Origin: Cyanobium sp.
Lineage (GTDB): Bacteria; Cyanobacteriota; Cyanobacteriia; PCC-6307; Cyanobiaceae
Reading direction: 5' to 3'
Length of the DNA stretch: 64,000 bases
Assembly (NCBI GenBank): GCA_007135755.1
Contig: SLIG01000007.1
Location: 17,466 to 81,465, forward strand
Under the pieces are notes generated by a model. It made no database searches. It saw only the letters and a program-made list of their open reading frames with translations, and had not been told where the DNA came from. Each line of letters begins with the position of its first letter. The stretch's first letter is position 1. The translations under genes and the position numbers were made by a program. Below, in pieces: positions 55,897-63,981 of this stretch.

Positions 55897-57189
55897 TCAG
55901 TCCGCAAAGATGCGGTAGATCGAGGCGGCGTTGAGCACGGGGCCGAAGGGGGTGACGGCCTGGATCAGGAAGTCGTTGAAGCGGGTCCAGCCGTTGCGGG
56001 GCACCACCACCATGTCGCCATTGTGCAGCGCCGGGTTGGCCGGCGAATCCAGAGCCGCAGAGGGATCGAAGGCAATGCTGCGCACATCGATCTCGCCGCT
56101 GGGCTGCACCCGGATCAGACGGATCTCACGGGCGTTGGCCCGGCCCGGATCCACATCCCCGGCGGCGATCACCGCCGCGGCCAGGGGGCTGTTGGAGCGC
56201 ACCTGCATCAGGCCGGGCTGACGCACCTCACCCACCACCGTCACGCCGATGGTGTCGGGAGCGAAGTTGGAGGCGGCGGTGCGGATCAGCACATCGCTGG
56301 GCTTGGGCACCTCCGAGCGGGCCACCCGCACCATGTCACCGTCGTACAGAAGAGGGTTGACGGTGCTGGTGTTGTTCATCAGCAGCTCCTGGTAGTCGAA
56401 GCGGTACTCCACCACCCGGCCCCCGGGCATGGGACTGGGGCGGGTGAGCACCACCTCGGCCAGGTTGGCCACCGCCGTGATGCCGCCGGCCCGTTGCACC
56501 GCGTCCACCAGGGTGGGCCAACCGGCCGTGGTGATGGTGGTACCGGTGGTGGCCGGTCCGGCCGCCGCCAGGGTGGCTGCCTGGCTGCCCTGGGTGAGGG
56601 TGTAGAAGCCGGGCTTCTGCACCTCCCCCAGCAGGGTCACGCGCACCGGACGCGGCGCCACCAGGTCAAGATACACAAGGGGATTGCGCAGGAAGCGGTC
56701 GTAACCCTCGGTGATCCGCTGCCGGGCCTCATCGAGCGTCAGCCCCCAGACGGGAACCGACCCCAGCCGTGGCAGGTTGATGGTGCCATCCCCGAGCACC
56801 TCAACCTGGGCAGCGTACCCCTCCACCATGAACACCGACATGGTGAGGCGATCGCCCGGGCCGAGGCGGTAGCGCACGCTGCCGATGCCCGGATCCACGC
56901 TGGGCGAGGCGAATCTGGTGGCCGTGGTGACCGCGGGCGGCGAGGCCACCTCCCCCAGAGGGGCTGGTGTCCGCAGCCGGGGACGTTCAGGCGGAGCAGG
57001 GGGTTGGGAGTCGTCGCCAGCGGGATCGGGGATCGGGAAGGCGTCGGGTTGAACTCCCGGCTGAGCGAGGGCTGTGGCGGCGACGCCGAGGGGAACCAGG
57101 GCCACGGGCGTGAGCAGCAGGGCCAGGGATCGCCGGCGCAGGCGGCGGCCACCGGTTCGGTCTGCAGAGTTGAGCGGAGATGAAGACAC
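55897..57189 (-). CDS. Polysaccharide export protein (Wza/KpsD family: Poly_export + SLBB domains)
   Basis: YRLGPGDRLTMSVF...DGTINLPRLGSVPVWGLTLDEARQRI (Poly_export), then VRVTLLGEVQKPGFYTL and IGVTVVGEVRQPGLMQV (SLBB). Signal peptide without a lipobox Cys. Start is GTG 57189 or TTG 57246. Confidence 0.8.
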   Translation of the reverse strand: MSSSPLNSADRTGGRRLRRRSLALLLTPVALVPLGVAATALAQPGVQPDAFPIPDPAGDDSQPPAPPERPRLRTPAPLGEVASPPAVTTATRFASPSVDPGIGSVRYRLGPGDRLTMSVFMVEGYAAQVEVLGDGTINLPRLGSVPVWGLTLDEARQRITEGYDRFLRNPLVYLDLVAPRPVRVTLLGEVQKPGFYTLTQGSQAATLAAAGPATTGTTITTAGWPTLVDAVQRAGGITAVANLAEVVLTRPSPMPGGRVVEYRFDYQELLMNNTSTVNPLLYDGDMVRVARSEVPKPSDVLIRTAASNFAPDTIGVTVVGEVRQPGLMQVRSNSPLAAAVIAAGDVDPGRANAREIRLIRVQPSGEIDVRSIAFDPSAALDSPANPALHNGDMVVVPRNGWTRFNDFLIQAVTPFGPVLNAASIYRIFAD

Positions 57190-57279
57190 GGGGCCTGGGG
57201 GCGGAGGGAACCGGGGCCGGCCGGGCGGAGGGGGACACCAGGGCAAGCGGGCTAATCTTCACGCACCTCCAACCCCATC

Positions 57280-58248
57280 GTGAAGACGAGCGGCGGAAAT
57301 CCGTTGAATCTCTCCGCCGCGATCGCTCTTCCCCCTGATCGGATCCAAGCGGATCTGGCCCCCTTCCGCCTGTTGTGTTCCCAGGGGCTCGATCTCTACC
57401 TGCTTCCCGGCGAGCGCTTCGGGCCCTACGCCGAAGCCGTGGGCGAACTGCGCGAGCTCACCTACCGCCAGCAACTCTCAGGCTCCGGCAACAGCAGGGA
57501 CCTGGACAGCCGTGACCCCCATTACGACCACTTCCTGCTGGTGGAGGCCAGCAGTGGCGAGCTGGCGGGCTCGGCCCGGTTGCAGTTCGTGCCCGCTCAC
57601 CCAACCACTGGACCCGGCGGCCCGGGTGCCGCGCCCCTGCCGGGCAGCCAGCAGTCGTATCTGGAGCACGTGTACCCAGGCATCAAGGCCGACCTGGCCA
57701 GCCAGGGCAACCATCTGGAAATCGGCCGCGTGGCCCTGGCGCCCCGTTTCCAGCGCCAGCCCCACACCTTGATGCTGTTGTTCCGGGGCGGCCTGCAGGC
57801 GGCCGTGAGCGCGGGCTACAGCTCCATCCATGGCCTGGTGTCTTACAACCACTTCGCCTATGGGGAAGCGGTGAACCGGGAGTTTCTGGGCACCCTGCTG
57901 CGCTCCCCCTTCCTGGATGCCTCGTCGCCCCATCCCCAGCCCCGCCATCCGCTGGAGGGCCTGACACCCGATCCGAGGCAGGCAGCAGTGGCCACCATCC
58001 AGGAGCTGGAACTGGACATCCGCCACCGCCTCGATCCAGCCTTCCGGCTGCCCGTGCTGCTGCGCCAGTACATCAATCTGATGGAAGCCCGGGTGCGCAA
58101 CCTGTCGCTGGCCCGCGACTTCAACCAGATCACCGAGATCCTGATGGCCGCCGATCTGGCGCGGATCCCGGCCCGCAGGCTGGCCCACTTCATCGCCTTC
58201 GAGCACGAGCCGATCTACCGGACCTTCAGCTGGTATCGGGGGGGATGA
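57280..58248 (+). CDS. GNAT-fold N-acyltransferase of the OlsB/FeeM (Acetyltransf_5, 'putative hemolysin') family
   Basis: RELTYRQQ...DSRDPHYDHFLLVEASSGELAGSARL and C-terminal LPVLLRQYINLMEARV...DFNQITEILMAADLARIPARRLAHF parallel OlsB-type proteins. GTG start. Confidence 0.7.
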   Translation: MKTSGGNPLNLSAAIALPPDRIQADLAPFRLLCSQGLDLYLLPGERFGPYAEAVGELRELTYRQQLSGSGNSRDLDSRDPHYDHFLLVEASSGELAGSARLQFVPAHPTTGPGGPGAAPLPGSQQSYLEHVYPGIKADLASQGNHLEIGRVALAPRFQRQPHTLMLLFRGGLQAAVSAGYSSIHGLVSYNHFAYGEAVNREFLGTLLRSPFLDASSPHPQPRHPLEGLTPDPRQAAVATIQELELDIRHRLDPAFRLPVLLRQYINLMEARVRNLSLARDFNQITEILMAADLARIPARRLAHFIAFEHEPIYRTFSWYRGG

Positions 58249-58305
58249 GACAGTGCCAGTGAACTGGTACGTTGCCATCCGATCAGGGCGGGGCCGAGGG
58301 ACTTG

Positions 58306-58614
58306 ATGCACGCAGGCCCCGACAACGACAGCCGCGGAGCCTCGTCCCCAGCTCCTGGCGGGGAGAGCCTGCAGGGCCGTCTGATCGAGATCCTGCAGCG
58401 CATCTCCGGTGCCGATCTGGAGCAGATCACACCTGAGGCGCGCCTGATCGAGGACATCGGCATCGATTCCCTGGGCTTCTACGAGATCCTGATCGAGGCC
58501 GACGAGTGCCTCGGCATCAAGATCCGGGAGGAGGACCTGCTGCGCTTCCGCACCGTCGGGGATGTCCAGCGACACCTGGAATCGCTGGAGTCAGGCGATG
58601 GCACGAACAGCTGA
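58306..58614 (+). CDS. Dedicated acyl carrier protein (non-housekeeping)
   Basis: Phosphopantetheine site IEDIGIDSLGFYEILIEADE (DSL). Clearly different from canonical AcpP (DLGADSLDTVELVMALEE). About 35-aa low-complexity N-terminal extension. Confidence 0.8.
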   Translation: MHAGPDNDSRGASSPAPGGESLQGRLIEILQRISGADLEQITPEARLIEDIGIDSLGFYEILIEADECLGIKIREEDLLRFRTVGDVQRHLESLESGDGTNS

Positions 58615-59854
58615 GCGGGTCGCCGTGACCGGCTGGGGAGCGATCACCCCCCTGGCCGGTGATGCCGACGGCACCTGGACCGCCACCCTTGAGGGCCGCA
58701 GCGGCATCCGGGCTCTGCAGGAGGCATGGGCCAGCGACCTGCCCGCCCGCATCGCCGGCTGCGTCGACGCCGATGTGGCCGCAGCCCTCGAACCCCTGCA
58801 ACGCCGGCGCCTGGACCGCTGCTCCCAGCTGGGCCTGCTGGCGGCCCGCCAGGCCTGGAACCAGGCCCGGCCCCACCTGAGCGGCATCGACCCGGCCCGG
58901 GTGGCGGTGGTGATCGGCACGGGCATCGGCGGCCTGGCCACCCTGGAGCGGCAGCACTGCAACCTGCTGGAGGCCGGCCCCGGGCGCGTGAACCCACTCA
59001 CCGTGCCGATGCTGATCCCCAATGCCGCCGCGGGCCAGATCGCCATCGACCTGGGGCTCCACGGCGGCGCCCACACCCCCGTGTCGGCCTGTGCCTCCGG
59101 TGCCGAAGCGCTGCTGCTGGCCCAGATGCTGCTCAACGACGACCGGGCCGACGTGGTGATCGCCGGCGGCAGCGAAGCCCCCGTGAACCGGCTGGGGCTG
59201 GTGGGCTTTGCGGCCATGCGGGCTCTCTCCTGCCGCAATGAGGCCCCGGACCAGGCCTCCCGCCCCTACAGCCGCGACCGCGACGGCTTCGTGCTCTCCG
59301 AGGGTGCCGGGGCCCTGGTGCTGCAACGCCCGGACGACCTGCAGACCCATAATCCCAGACCCCTTGGCTGGCTGCTGGCCAGCGGCAGCAGCAGCGACGG
59401 GCACCACATCGTGGCACCAGAACCGGATGGGCTTAGGGCCAGTGCCGCCATGGCCGATGCCCTGAAAAGGGCCGATCTCGGGGTGGAGGCGCTCAGCTTC
59501 GTGCAGGCCCATGCCACCGGGACGCCGGTGGGCGATCTGGCAGAGGCGCGCGCCCTGGCGCGCACCCTCGGCGCCCGCAGCCACGACCTTCCGGTCACCG
59601 CCCCCAAAGGCCAGCTGGGGCATCTGCTCGGTGCAGCCGGCGCCGTGGAGACGATCCTTGCCCTGCAGGCCCTGCGCCGGGGCCTGGTGCCTCGCTCGTT
59701 GAATGCCGACCCCGTCGACCCGGCCATCGAGCTGGCGGTGGTGCGGGACGCTCCGCTGGCCCTGGCGGGCGGGGAGGCTGCCGGGGAGCGCTATGCCCTC
59801 AAGAACGCCTTCGGCTTCGGCGGCCACAACATCAGTCTGCTGCTGGCGGCCTGA
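58598..59854 (+). CDS. Beta-ketoacyl-ACP synthase II-like condensing enzyme (FabF paralogue)
   Basis: RVAVTGWGAITPLAG, active-site PVSACASGAEAL, HATGTPVGD and GHLLGAAGAVE (Cys-His-His triad), FGFGGHN. Its ATG overlaps the ACP 3' end by 17 nt. Confidence 0.88.
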   Translation: MARTAERVAVTGWGAITPLAGDADGTWTATLEGRSGIRALQEAWASDLPARIAGCVDADVAAALEPLQRRRLDRCSQLGLLAARQAWNQARPHLSGIDPARVAVVIGTGIGGLATLERQHCNLLEAGPGRVNPLTVPMLIPNAAAGQIAIDLGLHGGAHTPVSACASGAEALLLAQMLLNDDRADVVIAGGSEAPVNRLGLVGFAAMRALSCRNEAPDQASRPYSRDRDGFVLSEGAGALVLQRPDDLQTHNPRPLGWLLASGSSSDGHHIVAPEPDGLRASAAMADALKRADLGVEALSFVQAHATGTPVGDLAEARALARTLGARSHDLPVTAPKGQLGHLLGAAGAVETILALQALRRGLVPRSLNADPVDPAIELAVVRDAPLALAGGEAAGERYALKNAFGFGGHNISLLLAA

Positions 59855-61889
59855 GCTCGGCGGCGGCGTAGTGGGCCTGCACCGCCCGCACGAAAGTCTG
59901 GCGGTCGCAGCCCCGGTGGTCGGCGGAGCTCGCCGGCAGGGCCAGATCGCGGGAGCGCCCGCGGCGGCAGTGGATGGTGGCCAGGGGGGCGCTCAGCCGG
60001 GCGAGCAGCAGCCCCAGAGGGCGGTAGAGGTCGCGGCTGGAGGTGCTCAGGCCGTGGTAGCTGAAGGTCCAGGGCACGATCAGAGCCCCGTGTTTCCGGG
60101 CCAGCAGCAGGGCGCTGGCGGAGACGCGCTCACGGATGGGGGTCAGCAGGGAGCCGTTGGGAGCCAGCATCACCTCACCGCGCTCCGCCAGGGTGCGCGA
60201 GGCCCGGTAGAGGGCCGAGGTGCGCGAGCGGCCGTCGCGGTGGTCCATCAGGCCATGGCCGGCGTTGGCCGCTGAGGCCGAGAACCAGGGCATGATCCGG
60301 CTGAGGTGCAGGTTGGCCGTGGTGATGCTGGGCAGCCGCAGCACGCCCTGCACCACCAGCACATCGGCGGGGTGCTCATGGTTCCAGATGTGCACCAGGG
60401 GGATCCCCTCCGGTTCGCTGGGGTGGCTGTCATCCACCACCACGCTGATGCCCAGGGCCCGCAGGCCCACCTGAGCGGTCGCCACGAGTAACCGGGCAGC
60501 CAGCCGGCGCCGGCCCAGGGCCAGGGCCAGCAGCTGCAGGCCGTAGACCACGAAGTAGGAAACCCCCCAGAACAGGCGGGACAGCACCCGCAGGGGCAGC
60601 AACAGGGGAGAACTGGCTGACGCCTGGCCGGGGGCTGGCAACCGCGGCCGTGGCGCCAGCCGGCGCGCCTCCGGGCCGATCGGAAACGTGGTGCGGAAGG
60701 GAAAGTCGCCGTCGAAATTGCCATTCACCTGGGTGGAGGTCACCAGGTGGTCGTAGAAGCGGTAGAAGAGCGGCCGGTCGCTGGTGTGGGGCTCGCGCCA
60801 GAACTGATCCAGGGGTTGCTGGTCGGTGAGGCCTGGCAGGTTGTAGAAGGTCTGGCCCATGACCTTGGTGGGCACGGCGTGGTACAGCGCCTGCAGGCCC
60901 ACGGTGCTGTTCACGGTCACCACCCCCCGGCAGGTGCGCAGGAAACGGCTCAGGGCGCCGTCGTGGAAATAGTGCACCCGGCCCTCCACCCCGTAGCGGC
61001 GGGCCAGCAGCCGGATCAGCCGACCGTAGTGGTTGTAGCCGCGATCGCGAGGATGGTGCTTGAAAGCCAGATGATCGGAGGCATGGGCATGGCGAGCGAA
61101 GGAGCTGATCACGTCCTCGATGAAGTCGTGCATGCCCCGATAGGGCGACCCCAGCTGCACCTGGGAATCGCTGGACACCTGCAGCACGGCCAGGAAATAG
61201 GAGAGATGCTCCAGCAGACGCCGCTTGAGCCCCCGCTCCTGCCAGCGGTAGAGCCAGTAGCGCCAGCTGCCGCGCAGCTGGCACCAGAGAAACCGCGGCG
61301 AGGGTTGAAGCTTGTGCTCGCCCTCGATGATCGGGTAGCGGGTGGTGGCGTGCTGGATGAAGGTGGGGGCCTTCCAGAGCTTGCGCCAGCGCCAGCCCGG
61401 ATCCAGGGTGCCCTGGGGGAGAGCATCCACGGGCGGCAGCTGGCGGTAGAAGGCCACGGGCTGGTTGAGGTTGGAGCGGGCATTCACCCGCTCGCGCTCC
61501 AGGGTCACGTAGTTGGGACGGATGTAGCCCAGCTCGAACACCCAGGCCTCGATGCCGGCGCTGCGCGCCTCCTCGATGGCGATGCGGTGAGGAATGATGA
61601 AATCGCCATACATGAAGATGTGGCGGATGCCGCGCTCGCGGATCAGCTCGCGCACGAACGGCCGCCAGTCCTGCATCGAACCGCTGTAGGGCACCCGCAC
61701 CTCCCGCGGGAACCCGAACTCGCGGAGGGGAAAACTCACCTTGGTGACCGGGATGCCACAGCCGCGCAGGTAGCGGCAGAAGCGGGCGAAGAACAGCCCG
61801 ATCGGGCCCATCAGCAGCAGTACCGGGCCGTCGATCCGCACCTGAACCAACTGCACCGGCGCCGGAGCGGGGGCCCGTTCTGTGGTCAA
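59832..61889 (-). CDS. Fusion protein: KpsS-like capsule Kdo-transferase domain + TM linker + PlsC/OlsA-like lysolipid acyltransferase domain
   Basis: N-terminus LLLMGPIGLFF...MYGDFIIPHRIAIEEARSAGIEAWVFELGYIRPNYVTLERERVNARSNL parallels E. coli KpsS (LLLQGPMGPFF...FEEGYLRP...GVNA.S.L). Hydrophobic segment LFWGVSYFVVYGLQLLALAL. C-terminus has NHEHPAD (HX4D), then LAPNGS and IVPW. Confidence 0.8.
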   Translation of the reverse strand: MTTERAPAPAPVQLVQVRIDGPVLLLMGPIGLFFARFCRYLRGCGIPVTKVSFPLREFGFPREVRVPYSGSMQDWRPFVRELIRERGIRHIFMYGDFIIPHRIAIEEARSAGIEAWVFELGYIRPNYVTLERERVNARSNLNQPVAFYRQLPPVDALPQGTLDPGWRWRKLWKAPTFIQHATTRYPIIEGEHKLQPSPRFLWCQLRGSWRYWLYRWQERGLKRRLLEHLSYFLAVLQVSSDSQVQLGSPYRGMHDFIEDVISSFARHAHASDHLAFKHHPRDRGYNHYGRLIRLLARRYGVEGRVHYFHDGALSRFLRTCRGVVTVNSTVGLQALYHAVPTKVMGQTFYNLPGLTDQQPLDQFWREPHTSDRPLFYRFYDHLVTSTQVNGNFDGDFPFRTTFPIGPEARRLAPRPRLPAPGQASASSPLLLPLRVLSRLFWGVSYFVVYGLQLLALALGRRRLAARLLVATAQVGLRALGISVVVDDSHPSEPEGIPLVHIWNHEHPADVLVVQGVLRLPSITTANLHLSRIMPWFSASAANAGHGLMDHRDGRSRTSALYRASRTLAERGEVMLAPNGSLLTPIRERVSASALLLARKHGALIVPWTFSYHGLSTSSRDLYRPLGLLLARLSAPLATIHCRRGRSRDLALPASSADHRGCDRQTFVRAVQAHYAAAELRPPAAD

Positions 61890-61944: not shown

Positions 61945-63981
61945 TCAGCGCCGCCGCAGCCGGCCCCAGTGGCGGAAGATGCGCTGGCGCAGGCTGAGGG
62001 GCACAGGCGGTGCCGAGCGCCAGGCCAGCAGCTCTTCGATCGCCTGCTCCGGCTCGATGAACAGGCCGCTGTGGCGGCTCACATAGCGGGGATAGTCGAT
62101 GAGGGCGCCATGCACCAGGGCATCGAGGCTGAGGCGGCGGCCCCGCCGCTCACAGCGCAGGCGGTCGTGGCTGAGGCCCCAGCCGGCATAGAAGGGCAGG
62201 CCCCAGGTGTGCACCTCGAGCTCCCGCAGCAGGGCCTCGAAGCCGGCGATCGAGGTGAGCACGTGCAGGGCGTCGATCTGGGTGAACAGCTGCTGGATCG
62301 CGGCATCGGCCACCAGCTCGTCACACCAGTCACGGGCTGCCGCCTCATTCGAGCCCGGCCGGCACAGCCCCGCCAACACGTCCGGGTGGGGCTTGTAGAG
62401 GAGGTAGGCCGCGGGCTCGGCGGCCCGCACCGCCTGCAGCAGGCCCAGGTTGGTGCGCACGCCTGGGGCGCCCAGCCTGATCGAGGCATCCGATTCCACC
62501 TGCCCCACCACCAGCACCACCCGCCGAACCCCGGCCGGTCGGAGCCAGGGGGGCGCCTGGAGGTTGTATTTGGTGATCGCCTCCGCCACCAGCCGCCGGC
62601 GCAGCGCCCGCGCCCGCCGCAGCTGCTGGTCGTTCCAGTGGCCGGTGGCCAGGCCATGTTCCAGATCACTGGGGCCACCGGCGTCGTAGTAGATGCCGCG
62701 CCGGTCGATCACCCAGGAGATCGGGTCGATCAGGTCGGCCCCCAGCCCCACCGAGCGCAGGAAACCATCCTCGGCATGGAGCAGCGGCAATGCCCGGCGG
62801 CGGGCCGCCTCCAGCAGCCGCGGGCGGGCCCGCCGGCCCCACACCGCCAGGGCCTGGGCATGGCGGTGTGGGGCCTGCCACTGGAACCGAAAGCGCAGCC
62901 GGCTGCCGGCCAGGAAGCGGCGCAGCACCCGTTGCTTCCAGGGGGTGAAGCCGAAAGCCTCGATGCGCTCCGGCAGCCGGCCCCGCAGCCTGCGCTGCAG
63001 GCCGATGGCCGCCACCAGCTCCTCCACCTGGCAGCGTTGGTGGCGGTGGGGATCCACATACACGGCGTAGTCCACCAGGGCGGCGTGGACCAGATCGGCC
63101 AGCTGGCGGGGAGCGGCGGCGGCGCGGCGCGGCGGCGGCGGCAGCGCGTCGCGGCTAAGGCCCCAGCCGGCATAGAAGGGCATGCCGAAGCAGTGCACCG
63201 GCCGGCCCCAGAGCAGGGCCTCGAAGCCCAGCTGAGAGGTGACGACGTACACCGCCTTGGCCCGCTCGAGCAGGGCCGCGGGATGGCCGCCACTGGCCTC
63301 GAGCCGGACGCGCGGATGCTGCAGTTGCCGGGCCTGGAAATGGCCGCGCTTTCGGCCGCGCACCACATCCGGATGGGTCTTGACGACCACCAGCCGGCCA
63401 GGATGGTCGGCCAGCGCGGTGGCGAGCATCGCCTCGAAGCTGGCGGCCGTGGCCCCGCCCAGGCCGATCGAGAGGTCGCCGGCGGTCTGATCGACCACCA
63501 GCACGAAGGGCTCCGCCGGCACCGGCGCCTCGCGACTGCCGTTGTACTTGCTCACCCGCTGCTCACACCACAGGCCGCGGATGGCCTCGGCCCGCTGCAG
63601 CTGGGCGGGAGTGCGGGGGGCGGCGATCAGGCGCTCCAGGCGGCAGGGGCGGCCAGCGTCGTAGTAGATGCCGGCGTCATCGAGCACCAGGCCCAGGGGA
63701 GCACTGTCGGGGCCCAGATCCAGGGAGCGCAGGAAGGCGTCCTCGCAGCGCCAGAGCGGCAGCTGCCGCCGGCGGGCCAGCCGCTCGGCCAGACGGGCGC
63801 TGGGTTTGCGTCCCCAGGCCAGCAGGGCATCGAGGTCGGCCCCGGCGCAGCGGGCCGCGCCGGTCACCAGCCGGTGGTCGGCCAGCAGGGCGGCCAAAGT
63901 GCGATGGCGCAGCATGCCGGCGGCCGGCAGACCCAGGCGGGCCGCTGGGAGAGGAGAGGCCAAGGGCGAGTCGGGGAGCAC
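61945..63981 (-). CDS. kpsC: KpsC-like capsule polysaccharide protein with two tandem Kdo-transferase modules
   Basis: N half has CEDAFLRSLDLG...DDAGIYYDAGRPCRLE...MPFYAGWGLS. C half has AEDGFLRSVGLG...DRRGIYYDAGGPSDLE...LPFYAGWGLS. 678 aa, as in E. coli KpsC. GTG start 19 nt from the window end. Confidence 0.85.
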   Translation of the reverse strand: MLPDSPLASPLPAARLGLPAAGMLRHRTLAALLADHRLVTGAARCAGADLDALLAWGRKPSARLAERLARRRQLPLWRCEDAFLRSLDLGPDSAPLGLVLDDAGIYYDAGRPCRLERLIAAPRTPAQLQRAEAIRGLWCEQRVSKYNGSREAPVPAEPFVLVVDQTAGDLSIGLGGATAASFEAMLATALADHPGRLVVVKTHPDVVRGRKRGHFQARQLQHPRVRLEASGGHPAALLERAKAVYVVTSQLGFEALLWGRPVHCFGMPFYAGWGLSRDALPPPPRRAAAAPRQLADLVHAALVDYAVYVDPHRHQRCQVEELVAAIGLQRRLRGRLPERIEAFGFTPWKQRVLRRFLAGSRLRFRFQWQAPHRHAQALAVWGRRARPRLLEAARRRALPLLHAEDGFLRSVGLGADLIDPISWVIDRRGIYYDAGGPSDLEHGLATGHWNDQQLRRARALRRRLVAEAITKYNLQAPPWLRPAGVRRVVLVVGQVESDASIRLGAPGVRTNLGLLQAVRAAEPAAYLLYKPHPDVLAGLCRPGSNEAAARDWCDELVADAAIQQLFTQIDALHVLTSIAGFEALLRELEVHTWGLPFYAGWGLSHDRLRCERRGRRLSLDALVHGALIDYPRYVSRHSGLFIEPEQAIEELLAWRSAPPVPLSLRQRIFRHWGRLRRR

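What the first reader, a model, noticed from the sequence alone, without database searches (positions are those of the whole stretch)
59832..61889. Single 685-aa ORF fusing a KpsS-like Kdo transferase to a PlsC/OlsA-type acyltransferase through a hydrophobic linker
Seen in sequence: residues about 1-400 align by eye with E. coli KpsS (LLLxGPxGxFF, FExGYxRP, GVNAxSxL). About 40 residues later comes a strongly hydrophobic segment (LFWGVSYFVVYGLQLLALAL). The C-terminal about 230 aa carry the LPLAT block I motif NHEHPAD (HX4D) plus degenerate blocks (LAPNGS, IVPW). KpsS acts on a lyso-type lipid acceptor, and a covalently attached acyltransferase could make, re-acylate or edit that acceptor. I am not aware of this architecture being described. 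It would physically couple lipid acylation to the first Kdo transfer.
Basis: partly seen in the sequence, partly recalled or inferred. Interest (0 to 1): 0.72.

Follow-up and report, generated by a model that had tools for sequence, protein, structure and literature searches.

The report
KpsS fused to lipid acyltransferase
A small cyanobacterium (Cyanobium/Synechococcus group) encodes one protein that joins the enzyme starting a capsule's sugar-lipid anchor (KpsS) to a membrane lipid acyltransferase, and the neighbouring lipid-making genes suggest these cells build their own capsule anchor lipid.

Summary
Window 59832-61889 (-) is one uninterrupted 685-aa ORF. It has a full KpsS-type beta-Kdo transferase domain (aa ~16-404), a disordered linker, and a PlsC-fold acyltransferase (aa ~430-680) with HX4D (HEHPAD). 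It is not an artefact: 49 loci, nearly all picocyanobacterial genomes, carry the same in-frame fusion, and both domains are under purifying selection.

The "hydrophobic linker" is the acyltransferase's own N-terminal two-helix membrane anchor. A low-GC Prochlorococcus-like lineage encodes the two halves as adjacent separate genes, so this is a classic gene fusion. Some marine Synechococcus have lost the catalytic His in the fused domain, and those carry an intact stand-alone copy immediately downstream.

An OlsB-like GNAT N-acyltransferase lies next to the acyltransferase in 39 of 39 informative loci, usually with a dedicated ACP and FabF-like synthase, all inside a KpsC/KpsD/KpsMT capsule locus.

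Best reading: a locus-encoded lipid-anchor module whose O-acyltransferase is tethered to KpsS. The lipid itself is unknown; it could be an acyloxyacyl aminolipid or a remodelled phosphatidylglycerol. I found no description in the searched literature. I rate it a new variant of a known kind.

The parts
59832..61889 (-). Whole fused gene (685 aa): KpsS domain + linker + PlsC-fold acyltransferase
   Evidence: Uninterrupted ORF; Pfam PF05159 + PF01553; the same in-frame fusion in 49 loci.
60678..61844 (-). KpsS-type beta-Kdo transferase domain (aa ~16-404); invariant FKHHPRDR at 61041-61064
   Evidence: PF05159 E 8.8e-58. NCBIfam KpsS E 5e-84. Aligns at 44% identity to the 410-aa stand-alone KpsS of L056 over aa 16-404. 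Foldseek hits to KpsC and WbbB beta-Kdo transferases. dN/dS 0.08-0.12. HHP motif read directly.
60603..60677 (-). Inter-domain linker (aa ~405-429), poorly conserved and disordered
   Evidence: pLDDT below 50 at aa 416-424. Gap-rich, low-conservation columns. dN/dS 0.19-0.48. It coincides with the gene boundary in the unfused L056.
60456..60602 (-). Two-helix membrane-anchor motif of the acyltransferase (aa 430-478).
   Evidence: AF2 helices 430-457 and 461-478, pLDDT above 94. Present at the N-terminus of stand-alone homologues. Aligned to the N-terminal helices of TmPlsC 5KYM. Sequence read.
59853..60455 (-). Acyltransferase catalytic core (aa ~479-679): HX4D HEHPAD at 60363-60380; block III APNGSL at 60147-60164; IVPW block
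   Evidence: PF01553 above the gathering score. Clade profile hits 5KYM at E 8.8e-5. Foldseek 5KYM E 7e-6, TM 0.56/0.62. dN/dS 0.08-0.24. Motifs read.
61945..63981 (-). KpsC-like dual-module beta-Kdo transferase (678 aa), immediately upstream on the same strand
   Evidence: PF05159 with four matched stretches, E 2.8e-76. Adjacent to the fusion in every locus that reaches that far.
58562..59854 (+). FabF-like beta-ketoacyl-ACP synthase II (430 aa). Convergent with the fusion; the 3' ends overlap by 23 nt.
   Evidence: ketoacyl-synt N and C domains. PRK07314 410.7 bits, above its cutoff of 387. Present in 32 of 39 informative loci.
58303..58614 (+). Dedicated acyl carrier protein (103 aa, DSL phosphopantetheine site)
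   Evidence: PP-binding E 4e-11; ACP models; co-occurs with the KAS.
57280..58248 (+). OlsB-like GNAT N-acyltransferase (322 aa, Acetyltransf_5)
   Evidence: PF13444 E 1e-10. Aligns to the C-terminal (N-acyltransferase) part of the OlsF model, positions 319-569 of 570, E 4e-11. Lies within 2 kb of the acyltransferase in 39 of 39 loci with enough sequence, in genomes from 27% to 70% GC.
55897..57246 (-). KpsD/Wza-type outer-membrane polysaccharide export protein (449 aa)
   Evidence: Poly_export + SLBB domains; syntenic in all loci.

Best explanation
The gene is a natural fusion of kpsS with the neighbouring, locus-specific lipid O-acyltransferase of a picocyanobacterial ABC-transporter-type (Kps, 'group 2-like') capsule locus.

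Shown:
- The N-terminal 400 aa are a complete KpsS-type beta-Kdo transferase domain.
- The C-terminal 250 aa are a PlsC-fold LPLAT with HX4D and its own two-helix membrane anchor.
- The two parts are separate adjacent genes in a low-GC lineage and are fused in Cyanobium and Synechococcus.
- The acyltransferase always travels with an OlsB-like GNAT N-acyltransferase, and usually with a dedicated ACP and a FabF-like synthase.

Inferred mechanism:
1. The two-helix motif embeds the protein in the cytoplasmic leaflet. The protein has only one strongly hydrophobic helix, and both domains use cytoplasmic donors (acyl-ACP and CMP-Kdo), so both domains sit on the cytoplasmic face.
2. The GNAT, supplied by the dedicated ACP/KAS, makes a mono-acyl ('lyso') lipid.
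3. The fused LPLAT domain O-acylates it.
4. The tethered KpsS domain puts the first beta-Kdo on the product.
5. KpsC extends the Kdo linker, serotype-specific transferases build the polymer, and KpsMT/KpsD export it.

The fusion would keep a low-abundance, dedicated acceptor lipid next to the initiating glycosyltransferase. The chemical identity of the lipid is not established.
For: Domain identity. Fusion real and conserved in 49 loci. Purifying selection on both domains (dN/dS 0.08-0.12 for KpsS, 0.08-0.24 for the acyltransferase).

Unfused state: KpsS of 410 aa, then a 1-nt gap, then an acyltransferase of 252 aa, in two independent contigs.

The activity is retained by the locus. Where the fused domain has lost His and blocks II/III, an intact stand-alone paralogue with NHENPLD and APNGS follows directly. 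An intermediate state with both copies intact also exists.

GNAT adjacency in 39/39 loci and KAS+ACP in 32/39. The acyltransferase clade is tiny (77 representatives among 1.84 billion), and every genomic context examined was a kps locus.

The acceptor is unlikely to be lysophosphatidic acid. TmPlsC Arg159, which coordinates the LPA phosphate (PMC8319176), is Leu581 here (window 60147-60164, APNGSL) and Leu in the clade consensus.

The two-helix anchor holds PlsC in one leaflet (PMC8753187). Precedents exist for locus-encoded anchor-lipid enzymes in such capsules: rkp-1 (PMC3557214) and VexE (PMC8760489).
Against: There is no biochemical or lipidomic data for any member.

KpsS elsewhere uses ordinary phosphatidylglycerol and needs no dedicated lipid pathway.

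The acyltransferase domain scores only just above the Pfam threshold (26.4 against 23 bits). Block III is degenerate (APNGS rather than FPEGT).

About 10% of homologues carry a dead fused domain, and Prochlorococcus-like genomes work with split genes, so covalent coupling is not essential.

Seven of 39 loci lack the ACP and KAS.

I could not inspect model coordinates to check that both active sites face the same membrane plane.

The GNAT matches the OlsF model far below its cutoff (42 against 620 bits).
Confidence: 0.6

Rival explanations
1. Phosphatidylglycerol remodelling. The fused LPLAT re-acylates lyso-PG (or lyso-PG-Kdo), or makes a special PG species with fatty acids from the dedicated ACP/KAS. 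The anchor is still PG as in E. coli, and the GNAT has a separate job such as N-acylating an amino sugar of the polymer.
For: KpsS/KpsC systems characterised so far use PG, and a (lyso)PG terminus is found (PMC10148158, PMC11041684). PlsC-family enzymes typically act on lyso-glycerolipids. No aminolipid has been reported in cyanobacteria (PMC12971839). In picocyanobacterial KpsM a basic residue appears at position 45, so an anionic head group may still be bound.
Against: The GNAT-acyltransferase pairing is 39/39 across very divergent genomes, which fits a shared product better than two unrelated tasks. The phosphate-binding Arg159 of PlsC is Leu in the clade consensus. KpsM Arg94, which lies near the lipid phosphate in the solved complex, is Ser or Asn in all seven picocyanobacterial KpsM sequences examined.
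Confidence: 0.2
2. Mainly structural. The C-terminal domain serves chiefly to anchor and scaffold KpsS at the membrane, or to dock a partner acyltransferase, ACP or KpsMT. Its catalysis is secondary or dispensable.
For: A sub-clade keeps the fused domain in frame although His and blocks II/III are lost. E. coli-type KpsS has no membrane anchor of its own. The two-helix motif is the most confidently modelled part.
Against: HX4D is kept in about 105 of 118 homologues. The whole core, not only the helices, has dN/dS 0.08-0.24 in the window's lineage. Once dead, the domain diverges about 19 times faster than KpsS: 38% against 94% amino-acid identity between L004 and L045. An intact copy is then always adjacent. 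The Prochlorococcus-like KpsS works unfused.
Confidence: 0.1
3. Decoration enzyme. The acyltransferase (with the GNAT) acylates Kdo or the polysaccharide itself rather than making the lipid anchor.
For: Capsule loci often carry O-acyl or O-acetyl transferases. The locus also encodes sulfotransferases, so the polymer is heavily modified.
Against: The fold, the leaflet-embedded two-helix motif and the closest structural relatives (PlsC, PatA, LpxM) all belong to enzymes that acylate membrane lipids or glycolipids. As established knowledge, not tested here, polysaccharide O-acetyltransferases belong to other families.
Confidence: 0.05
4. Artefact. An assembly chimera or a sequencing frameshift joined two genes.
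For: Two of 51 loci are split. One of them (L018) is a 4-kb MAG contig whose break looks like a frameshift.
Against: There are 49 in-frame fusions, nearly all from distinct species-level genomes, including complete genomes (Cyanobium NS01, NIES-981, Synechococcus MIT S1220). The linker length is conserved. Both domains are under purifying selection.
Confidence: 0.01

Closest known systems
KpsS of E. coli group 2 capsules (retaining beta-Kdo transferase, Capsule_synth/GT107-type)
   Same: The N-terminal ~400 aa align end to end with the KpsS model. The HHP motif is invariant. The gene sits with a dual-module KpsC, a KpsD-type exporter and, in related loci, KpsM/KpsT and Kdo-synthesis genes.
   Different: Classical KpsS is a ~390-aa stand-alone protein that takes phosphatidylglycerol from the bulk membrane. 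Here it carries a 250-aa membrane-embedded acyltransferase. The score is well below the NCBIfam equivalog cutoff (283 against 600 bits).
PlsC / LPLAT (AGPAT) family; structure 5KYM of Thermotoga maritima PlsC
   Same: Same fold over the whole length, including the N-terminal two-helix anchor (Foldseek E 7e-6, TM 0.56/0.62). HX4D is present, as are the Gly of block III and the Pro of block IV.
   Different: Block III is APNGSL or FPSGSL instead of FPEGTR, so the Glu and the phosphate-binding Arg159 are replaced. The clade is tiny and found only in picocyanobacterial kps loci. It is therefore not a housekeeping lysophosphatidic acid acyltransferase.
OlsB/OlsA, OlsF and GlsB/GlsA aminolipid synthases
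   Same: They pair an Acetyltransf_5 GNAT N-acyltransferase with a PlsC-family O-acyltransferase, as in this locus (39/39). OlsF shows that such modules can become fused. The GNAT aligns to the N-acyltransferase half of the OlsF model.
   Different: Here the O-acyltransferase is fused to a glycosyltransferase, not to the GNAT. Both proteins are far below the equivalog thresholds, and the acyltransferase hits no OlsA model. No such lipid has been found in cyanobacteria (PMC12971839).
rkp-1 / wcb capsule regions of rhizobia and Burkholderia (RkpA/WcbR PKS, RkpG, RkpH, RkpI, RkpJ)
   Same: [quoted passage not shown] L055 shows a PKS with ACP, an alpha-oxoamine-synthase-type aminotransferase, an SDR and a KpsS-like gene in a row.
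   Different: The enzymology differs: a type I PKS instead of a type II KAS+ACP, and no GNAT or LPLAT. There is no fusion to KpsS.
VexE of the Vi antigen system
   Same: It is a locus-encoded acyltransferase that makes the lipid terminus of an ABC-transporter-dependent capsule and is needed for retention at the surface (PMC8760489).
   Different: It occurs in systems that lack KpsS and KpsC. It acylates a terminal HexNAc and carries TPR repeats rather than a glycosyltransferase.

Membership tests
KpsS (beta-Kdo transferase, Capsule_synth PF05159) | Full-length Capsule_synth domain | tested here: met
   PF05159 E 8.8e-58, profile positions 3-309 of 310.
KpsS (beta-Kdo transferase, Capsule_synth PF05159) | Reaches the NCBIfam KpsS equivalog threshold | tested here: not met
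   NF050054 scores 282.8 bits against a cutoff of 600, although the alignment covers 14-387 of 390 at E 5e-84. It is a distant orthologue, not an equivalog by NCBI's criterion.
KpsS (beta-Kdo transferase, Capsule_synth PF05159) | HP motif shared by CMP-sugar-dependent beta-Kdo and sialyl transferases | tested here: met
   FKHHPRDR at window 61041-61064. H278, H279, P280, R281 and D282 are invariant in 79 sequences. The motif is described in PMC10148158.
KpsS (beta-Kdo transferase, Capsule_synth PF05159) | Encoded with a dual-module KpsC and the Kps export machinery | tested here: met
   KpsC and KpsD lie in the window. KpsM/KpsT, KdsA, KdsB/C and KpsF are present in related loci.
KpsS (beta-Kdo transferase, Capsule_synth PF05159) | Transfers beta-Kdo from CMP-Kdo to phosphatidylglycerol | not testable with these tools
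   Needs an enzyme assay. The acceptor may differ in this system.
LPLAT/AGPAT acyltransferases (PF01553, PlsC fold) | Pfam Acyltransferase domain above the gathering score | tested here: met
   26.4 bits in the whole protein and 28.3 bits in the isolated domain, against 23. All 18 clade members hit, best E 3e-12.
LPLAT/AGPAT acyltransferases (PF01553, PlsC fold) | Catalytic HX4D (block I) | tested here: met
   H504 to D509 (HEHPAD). Kept in about 105 of 118 homologues and lost in one sub-clade.
LPLAT/AGPAT acyltransferases (PF01553, PlsC fold) | PlsC-like three-dimensional fold with N-terminal two-helix membrane motif | tested here: met
   AF2 model pLDDT 91.9. Foldseek best hits are 5KYM_B and 5KYM_A at E 7e-6 and 1.5e-5, TM 0.56-0.62, 264 aligned columns. 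The clade profile finds 5KYM as the only significant PDB sequence, E 8.8e-5.
PlsC sensu stricto (lysophosphatidic acid acyltransferase) | Block III FPEGTR with the Arg that binds the LPA phosphate (TmPlsC R159) | tested here: not met
   The window has APNGSL. The clade consensus has Leu at the R159 position and N or S at the Glu position. TIGR00530 scores 17-20 bits against a cutoff of 103. It should not be filed as an LPAAT, despite the NCBI names.
OlsBA/OlsF-type acyloxyacyl aminolipid synthases | Acetyltransf_5 GNAT N-acyltransferase encoded together with a PlsC-family O-acyltransferase | tested here: met
   39 of 39 loci with enough flanking sequence.
OlsBA/OlsF-type acyloxyacyl aminolipid synthases | Sequence membership in the OlsB/OlsF/GlsB and OlsA/GlsA models | tested here: not met
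   GNAT: OlsF 42 bits against a cutoff of 620; GlsB E 0.028. Acyltransferase domain: no OlsA or GlsA hit for the window protein.
OlsBA/OlsF-type acyloxyacyl aminolipid synthases | Product is an N-(acyloxyacyl) amino acid lipid | not testable with these tools
   Needs lipidomics or heterologous expression.

The most novel reading that the evidence does not exclude
Picocyanobacterial Kps-type capsules are not built on phosphatidylglycerol. They are built on a dedicated, phosphorus-free acyloxyacyl aminolipid. The OlsB-like GNAT (fed by its own ACP/KAS) makes the N-acyl lyso-lipid, the LPLAT domain adds the second chain, and the covalently attached KpsS domain glycosylates it at once. The remodelled lipid-binding canyon of KpsM (Arg94 to Ser/Asn, Trp45 to Arg/Lys) would then be the matching adaptation of the exporter. 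This would be a new class of capsule anchor. It would also be the first aminolipid pathway in cyanobacteria, in organisms known for sparing phosphorus in their lipids.
Probability: 0.3. Interest if true: 0.85.

Novelty: new variant of a known kind. Interest (0 to 1): 0.6.

Why it matters
How the lipid acceptor for ABC-transporter-dependent capsules is chosen and supplied is still poorly understood. So is the reason the finished polymer ends in a lyso form. All biochemistry so far comes from proteobacterial pathogens that use bulk phosphatidylglycerol.

This locus supplies a natural experiment in three states: split, fused, and fused-dead with a back-up copy. It ties KpsS physically and genetically to a lipid O-acyltransferase and an N-acyltransferase.

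That makes a concrete hypothesis directly testable by lipid mass spectrometry and heterologous expression. The hypothesis is that the capsule anchor is made to order, and possibly without phosphorus.

It also concerns globally abundant marine and freshwater picocyanobacteria. Their surface polysaccharides matter for grazing, phage adsorption and carbon export.

Finally, it flags a recurrent misannotation: pipelines name these proteins '1-acyl-sn-glycerol-3-phosphate acyltransferase', and stand-alone acyltransferases have been labelled with the KEGG identifier for kpsS.

Tried and rejected
- Foldseek with the full-length model returned only GT-B folds (UDP-GlcNAc 2-epimerases, KpsC, WbbB) at low TM and said nothing about the C-terminal part. 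I therefore modelled the domain alone.
- phmmer of the whole protein against PDB sequences gave only marginal WbbB hits.
- The first profile search against PDB (A2) included three canonical PlsC-like sequences, which inflated the 5KYM score to E 3e-25. I repeated it without them and got E 8.8e-5.
- Look-ups of P0016 and P0046 found no contig.
- The GNAT homologue search returned only close picocyanobacterial relatives with uninformative names. The GNAT profile found nothing in PDB. Its amine substrate therefore could not be inferred.
- I checked whether the KpsM residues that contact the lipid head group argue for a phosphate-free anchor. Arg94 is replaced, but a basic residue appears at position 45, and position 94 is Gln in 20 of 120 proteobacterial-type homologues. 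The result is suggestive, not decisive.
- dN/dS for the dead fused domain suffers from near-saturated synonymous sites, so only the contrast in amino-acid divergence is used.
- Five literature searches found no paper on a KpsS-acyltransferase fusion or on aminolipid-anchored capsules.
- The chimera/frameshift explanation was considered and rejected.
- I did not test whether unrelated LPLAT clades lie next to kpsS in other phyla.

Full report
**1. What is in the window**

Window 59832-61889 on the minus strand is one uninterrupted ORF of 685 aa with a TTG start. The region is about 70% G+C.

- Pfam finds Capsule_synth (PF05159) at aa 91-392, E 8.8e-58.
- Pfam finds Acyltransferase (PF01553) at aa 493-608, E 6.7e-6, 26.4 bits against a gathering score of 23.
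- The NCBIfam KpsS model aligns aa 22-392 to positions 14-387 of 390, E 5e-84. At 283 bits it is below the 600-bit equivalog cutoff.

- HEHPAD at 60363-60380.
- APNGSL at 60147-60164.
- The hydrophobic stretch within 60456-60602.
- FKHHPRDR, which holds the HP motif of CMP-sugar enzymes, at 61041-61064.

**2. Is the fusion real?**

Yes. The protein search returned 670 relatives. Of the 120 listed clusters (52-97% identity), about 100 carry both Pfam domains. They include complete genomes of Cyanobium sp. NS01 and NIES-981 and Synechococcus sp. M16CYN.

The scan of one genome per species found 51 loci. Forty-nine are picocyanobacterial (Cyanobium, Synechococcus, Parasynechococcus, 'Prochlorococcaceae'). 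The best match, at 97%, is Cyanobium sp. PLM2.Bin73, which is probably the source or a close relative of the window.

Across all fetched loci, the two halves are in one frame with no stop in 49. Two are split.

Nei-Gojobori estimates against nine relatives:

| Region | dN/dS |
|---|---|
| KpsS domain | 0.08-0.12 |
| Acyltransferase domain | 0.08-0.24 (one outlier, 0.37) |
| Linker | 0.19-0.48 |

Both domains are therefore under purifying selection in this lineage.

**3. Anatomy**

AlphaFold2 with 79 homologues gives mean pLDDT 85.9. The only disordered internal stretch is aa 416-424. Two long helices, 430-457 and 461-478, precede the acyltransferase core.

Modelled alone, the C-terminal 261 aa reach pLDDT 91.9 and pTM 0.89. 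Their best PDB match is T. maritima PlsC (5KYM), with E 7e-6, probability 1.0 and TM 0.56/0.62 over 264 columns. PatA and LpxM follow weakly.

A profile of this clade alone, without canonical PlsC sequences, finds 5KYM as the only significant PDB sequence (E 8.8e-5). The alignment starts in the N-terminal helices. All 18 clade members hit PF01553.

Stand-alone homologues of 240-266 aa begin with the same hydrophobic helix followed by an amphipathic helix. The 'hydrophobic linker' is therefore the acyltransferase's own two-helix motif. In PlsC that motif anchors the enzyme in one leaflet (PMC8753187, citing Robertson 2017).

Hydropathy shows no other membrane segment. A single full membrane crossing would put the two domains on opposite sides. 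Both need cytoplasmic donors, so I infer a monotopic anchor with both domains on the cytoplasmic face. I could not check this on coordinates.

**4. Natural variants**

(a) *Split.* In a 30%-GC marine contig, whose acyltransferase clusters with a protein named from Prochlorococcus sp. SP3034, kpsS (410 aa) stops 1 nt before a separate 252-aa acyltransferase gene. A second, independent contig shows the same arrangement. That KpsS aligns to aa 16-404 of the fusion at 44% identity. The gene boundary falls exactly at the disordered linker.

(b) *Fused only.* This is the majority state, including the window.

(c) *Fused plus a stand-alone paralogue, both with HX4D.* Found in L030-L032.

(d) *Fused but dead.* The motif reads QIFDYSSWFD, YVFDGLSLFD or QVFDGSSFFK, and blocks II and III are deleted. 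An intact stand-alone copy (NHENPLD, APNGS) follows immediately downstream. Between L004 and L045 the KpsS domain is 94% identical, while the dead domain is only 38% identical.

From these variants I draw two conclusions. The locus keeps one active acyltransferase, and covalent linkage is helpful but not essential.

**5. Context**

In the window the gene order is:

- KpsD-type exporter (55897-57246, -)
- GNAT (57280-58248, +)
- ACP (58303-58614, +)
- FabF-like KAS (58562-59854, +)
- the fusion (-)
- KpsC (61945-63981, -)

The GNAT is Acetyltransf_5. It aligns to the N-acyltransferase half of the OlsF model, E 4e-11, far below the cutoff.

A tblastn survey shows the GNAT within 2 kb of the acyltransferase in 39 of 39 loci that have enough sequence. 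This holds in genomes from 27% to 70% G+C and down to 27% protein identity. KAS and ACP are present in 32 of 39.

Related loci add:

- KpsM/KpsT, KdsA, KdsB/C and KpsF;
- a CMP-sugar synthetase, three DUF6716 transferases, a NeuB fusion and sulfotransferases.

This is therefore a Kps-type capsule locus with its own lipid-acylation module.

**6. Mechanism**

The only known partnerships of an Acetyltransf_5 N-acyltransferase with a PlsC-family O-acyltransferase are OlsB/OlsA, OlsF and GlsB/GlsA. All make acyloxyacyl aminolipids (PMC11631085, PMC12971839).

The major cyanobacterial membrane lipids carry no amino group (background knowledge, not tested here), so an N-acyltransferase points to a new lipid.

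TmPlsC Arg159 binds the LPA phosphate (PMC8319176). It is Leu in the clade consensus, which argues against lysophosphatidic acid as acceptor.

I therefore favour (0.6) a locus-encoded anchor-lipid module whose last acylation step is tethered to the enzyme that adds the first Kdo. Within that reading, an aminolipid anchor has an overall probability of about 0.3, and a remodelled PG about 0.2.

A side test on the exporter gave a suggestive but ambiguous result. In seven picocyanobacterial KpsM sequences aligned to the solved KpsM (8TSH):

- Arg35 is kept.
- Trp45 is Arg or Lys.
- Arg94, which lies near the lipid phosphate in the glycolipid complex (PMC11041684), is Ser or Asn.

Among 120 close homologues of the solved protein, these positions are R in 120, W in 118, and R/K in 100 with Q in 20.

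**7. Comparison with what is known**

- E. coli-type KpsS acts on phosphatidylglycerol and has no lipid-acylating domain (PMC10148158, PMC8760489).
- Dedicated lipid genes beside a KpsS-like gene are known in the rkp-1/wcb regions and are proposed to make a lipid anchor (PMC3557214, PMC3908369). A Rhizobium locus fetched here shows, in a row, a type I PKS with ACP, an alpha-oxoamine-synthase-type aminotransferase, an SDR, a sulfatase-family membrane protein and a KpsS-like gene.
- VexE is a locus-encoded acyltransferase for the Vi antigen anchor, in systems without KpsS/KpsC (PMC8760489).
- The phylum-wide cyanobacterial EPS survey noted the confined distribution of KpsS/KpsC but not this architecture (PMC4594306).
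- None of five literature searches found the fusion described.

**8. Verdict**

The finding is real, conserved and under selection.

Novelty is a new variant of a known kind: a KpsS joined to a clade-specific PlsC-fold acyltransferase within a GNAT/ACP/KAS lipid module. It is not a new category.

Interest is 0.6. It offers capsule biochemists and marine microbiologists a clear, testable hypothesis about how the anchor lipid is made. The key claim, the identity of the lipid, is still only inferred.

Noticed in passing
L002:6406-7248, plus the KpsM genes of L041, L043, L044, L050, L056 and L058: Picocyanobacterial KpsM differs from the solved KpsM (8TSH) at two of the three glycolipid-contact positions I checked: Trp45 is Arg/Lys and Arg94 is Ser/Asn, while Arg35 is kept. 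Close homologues of the solved protein have W in 118 of 120 and R/K in 100 of 120 at these positions.
   Followed up: partly
L040:10001-12037 (Cyanobium sp. CH-040): Against the window, the acyltransferase domain has dN 0.32 while the KpsS domain of the same gene has dN 0.054. This suggests domain-specific acceleration or recombination that replaced only the C-terminal domain.
   Followed up: no
L015 (CALRKN020000008.1); L035 and L003 (CALRKZ020000004.1): MAGs titled 'Bradyrhizobium ivorense' and 'Mesorhizobium carmichaelinearum' carry long contigs with a typical picocyanobacterial kps locus (82% and 66% identity to the window protein). The bins look mislabelled or contaminated.
   Followed up: no
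Proteins P0144, P0346 and P0353 (stand-alone acyltransferases): Tara Oceans catalogue entries label these 225-252-aa acyltransferases with KEGG K07265, which to my knowledge is the kpsS orthologue group. If so, the label was probably carried over from the fused proteins. NCBI in turn names many fusions '1-acyl-sn-glycerol-3-phosphate acyltransferase'.
   Followed up: partly
L056:10414-11418; L058:5045-6043; L059:4987-5961; L002:13005-13952: A conserved gene of about 315-335 aa lies between the GNAT and KpsD in the loci that lack ACP/KAS. It has no Pfam hit, apart from a weak Glyco_trans_1_2 match in L002. Its function is unknown.
   Followed up: partly
window 59832-59854: The 3' ends of the fused gene (-) and the KAS gene (+) overlap by 23 nt in convergent orientation. 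The close relative L005 shows a similar convergent overlap. There is no room for a terminator between the two operons.
   Followed up: no
L055:3-11215 (Rhizobium sp. CFBP 8762): This is an rkp-1-like region: a type I PKS (AT-DH-ER-KR-ACP), a class I/II aminotransferase of the alpha-oxoamine synthase type, an SDR, a sulfatase-family membrane protein and a KpsS-like gene in a row. The gene content resembles a sphingoid-type amino-lipid pathway placed next to KpsS.
   Followed up: partly
L005:1-7900 and L001:1-7700 (the sequence just beyond the window's 64000 end): The capsule locus continues with three DUF6716 putative glycosyltransferases, a 770-aa NeuB fusion (NeuB + SAF + AP_endonuc_2) and sulfotransferases. 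A CMP-sugar synthetase is also called in L001, L003 and L004. This suggests a sulfated polymer containing a nonulosonic acid.
   Followed up: no
L018:893-2911: This 4-kb MAG contig, closely related to the window, has the KpsS and acyltransferase parts out of frame, and the two-helix region is not recovered. It is probably a frameshift or assembly error rather than a true split.
   Followed up: no
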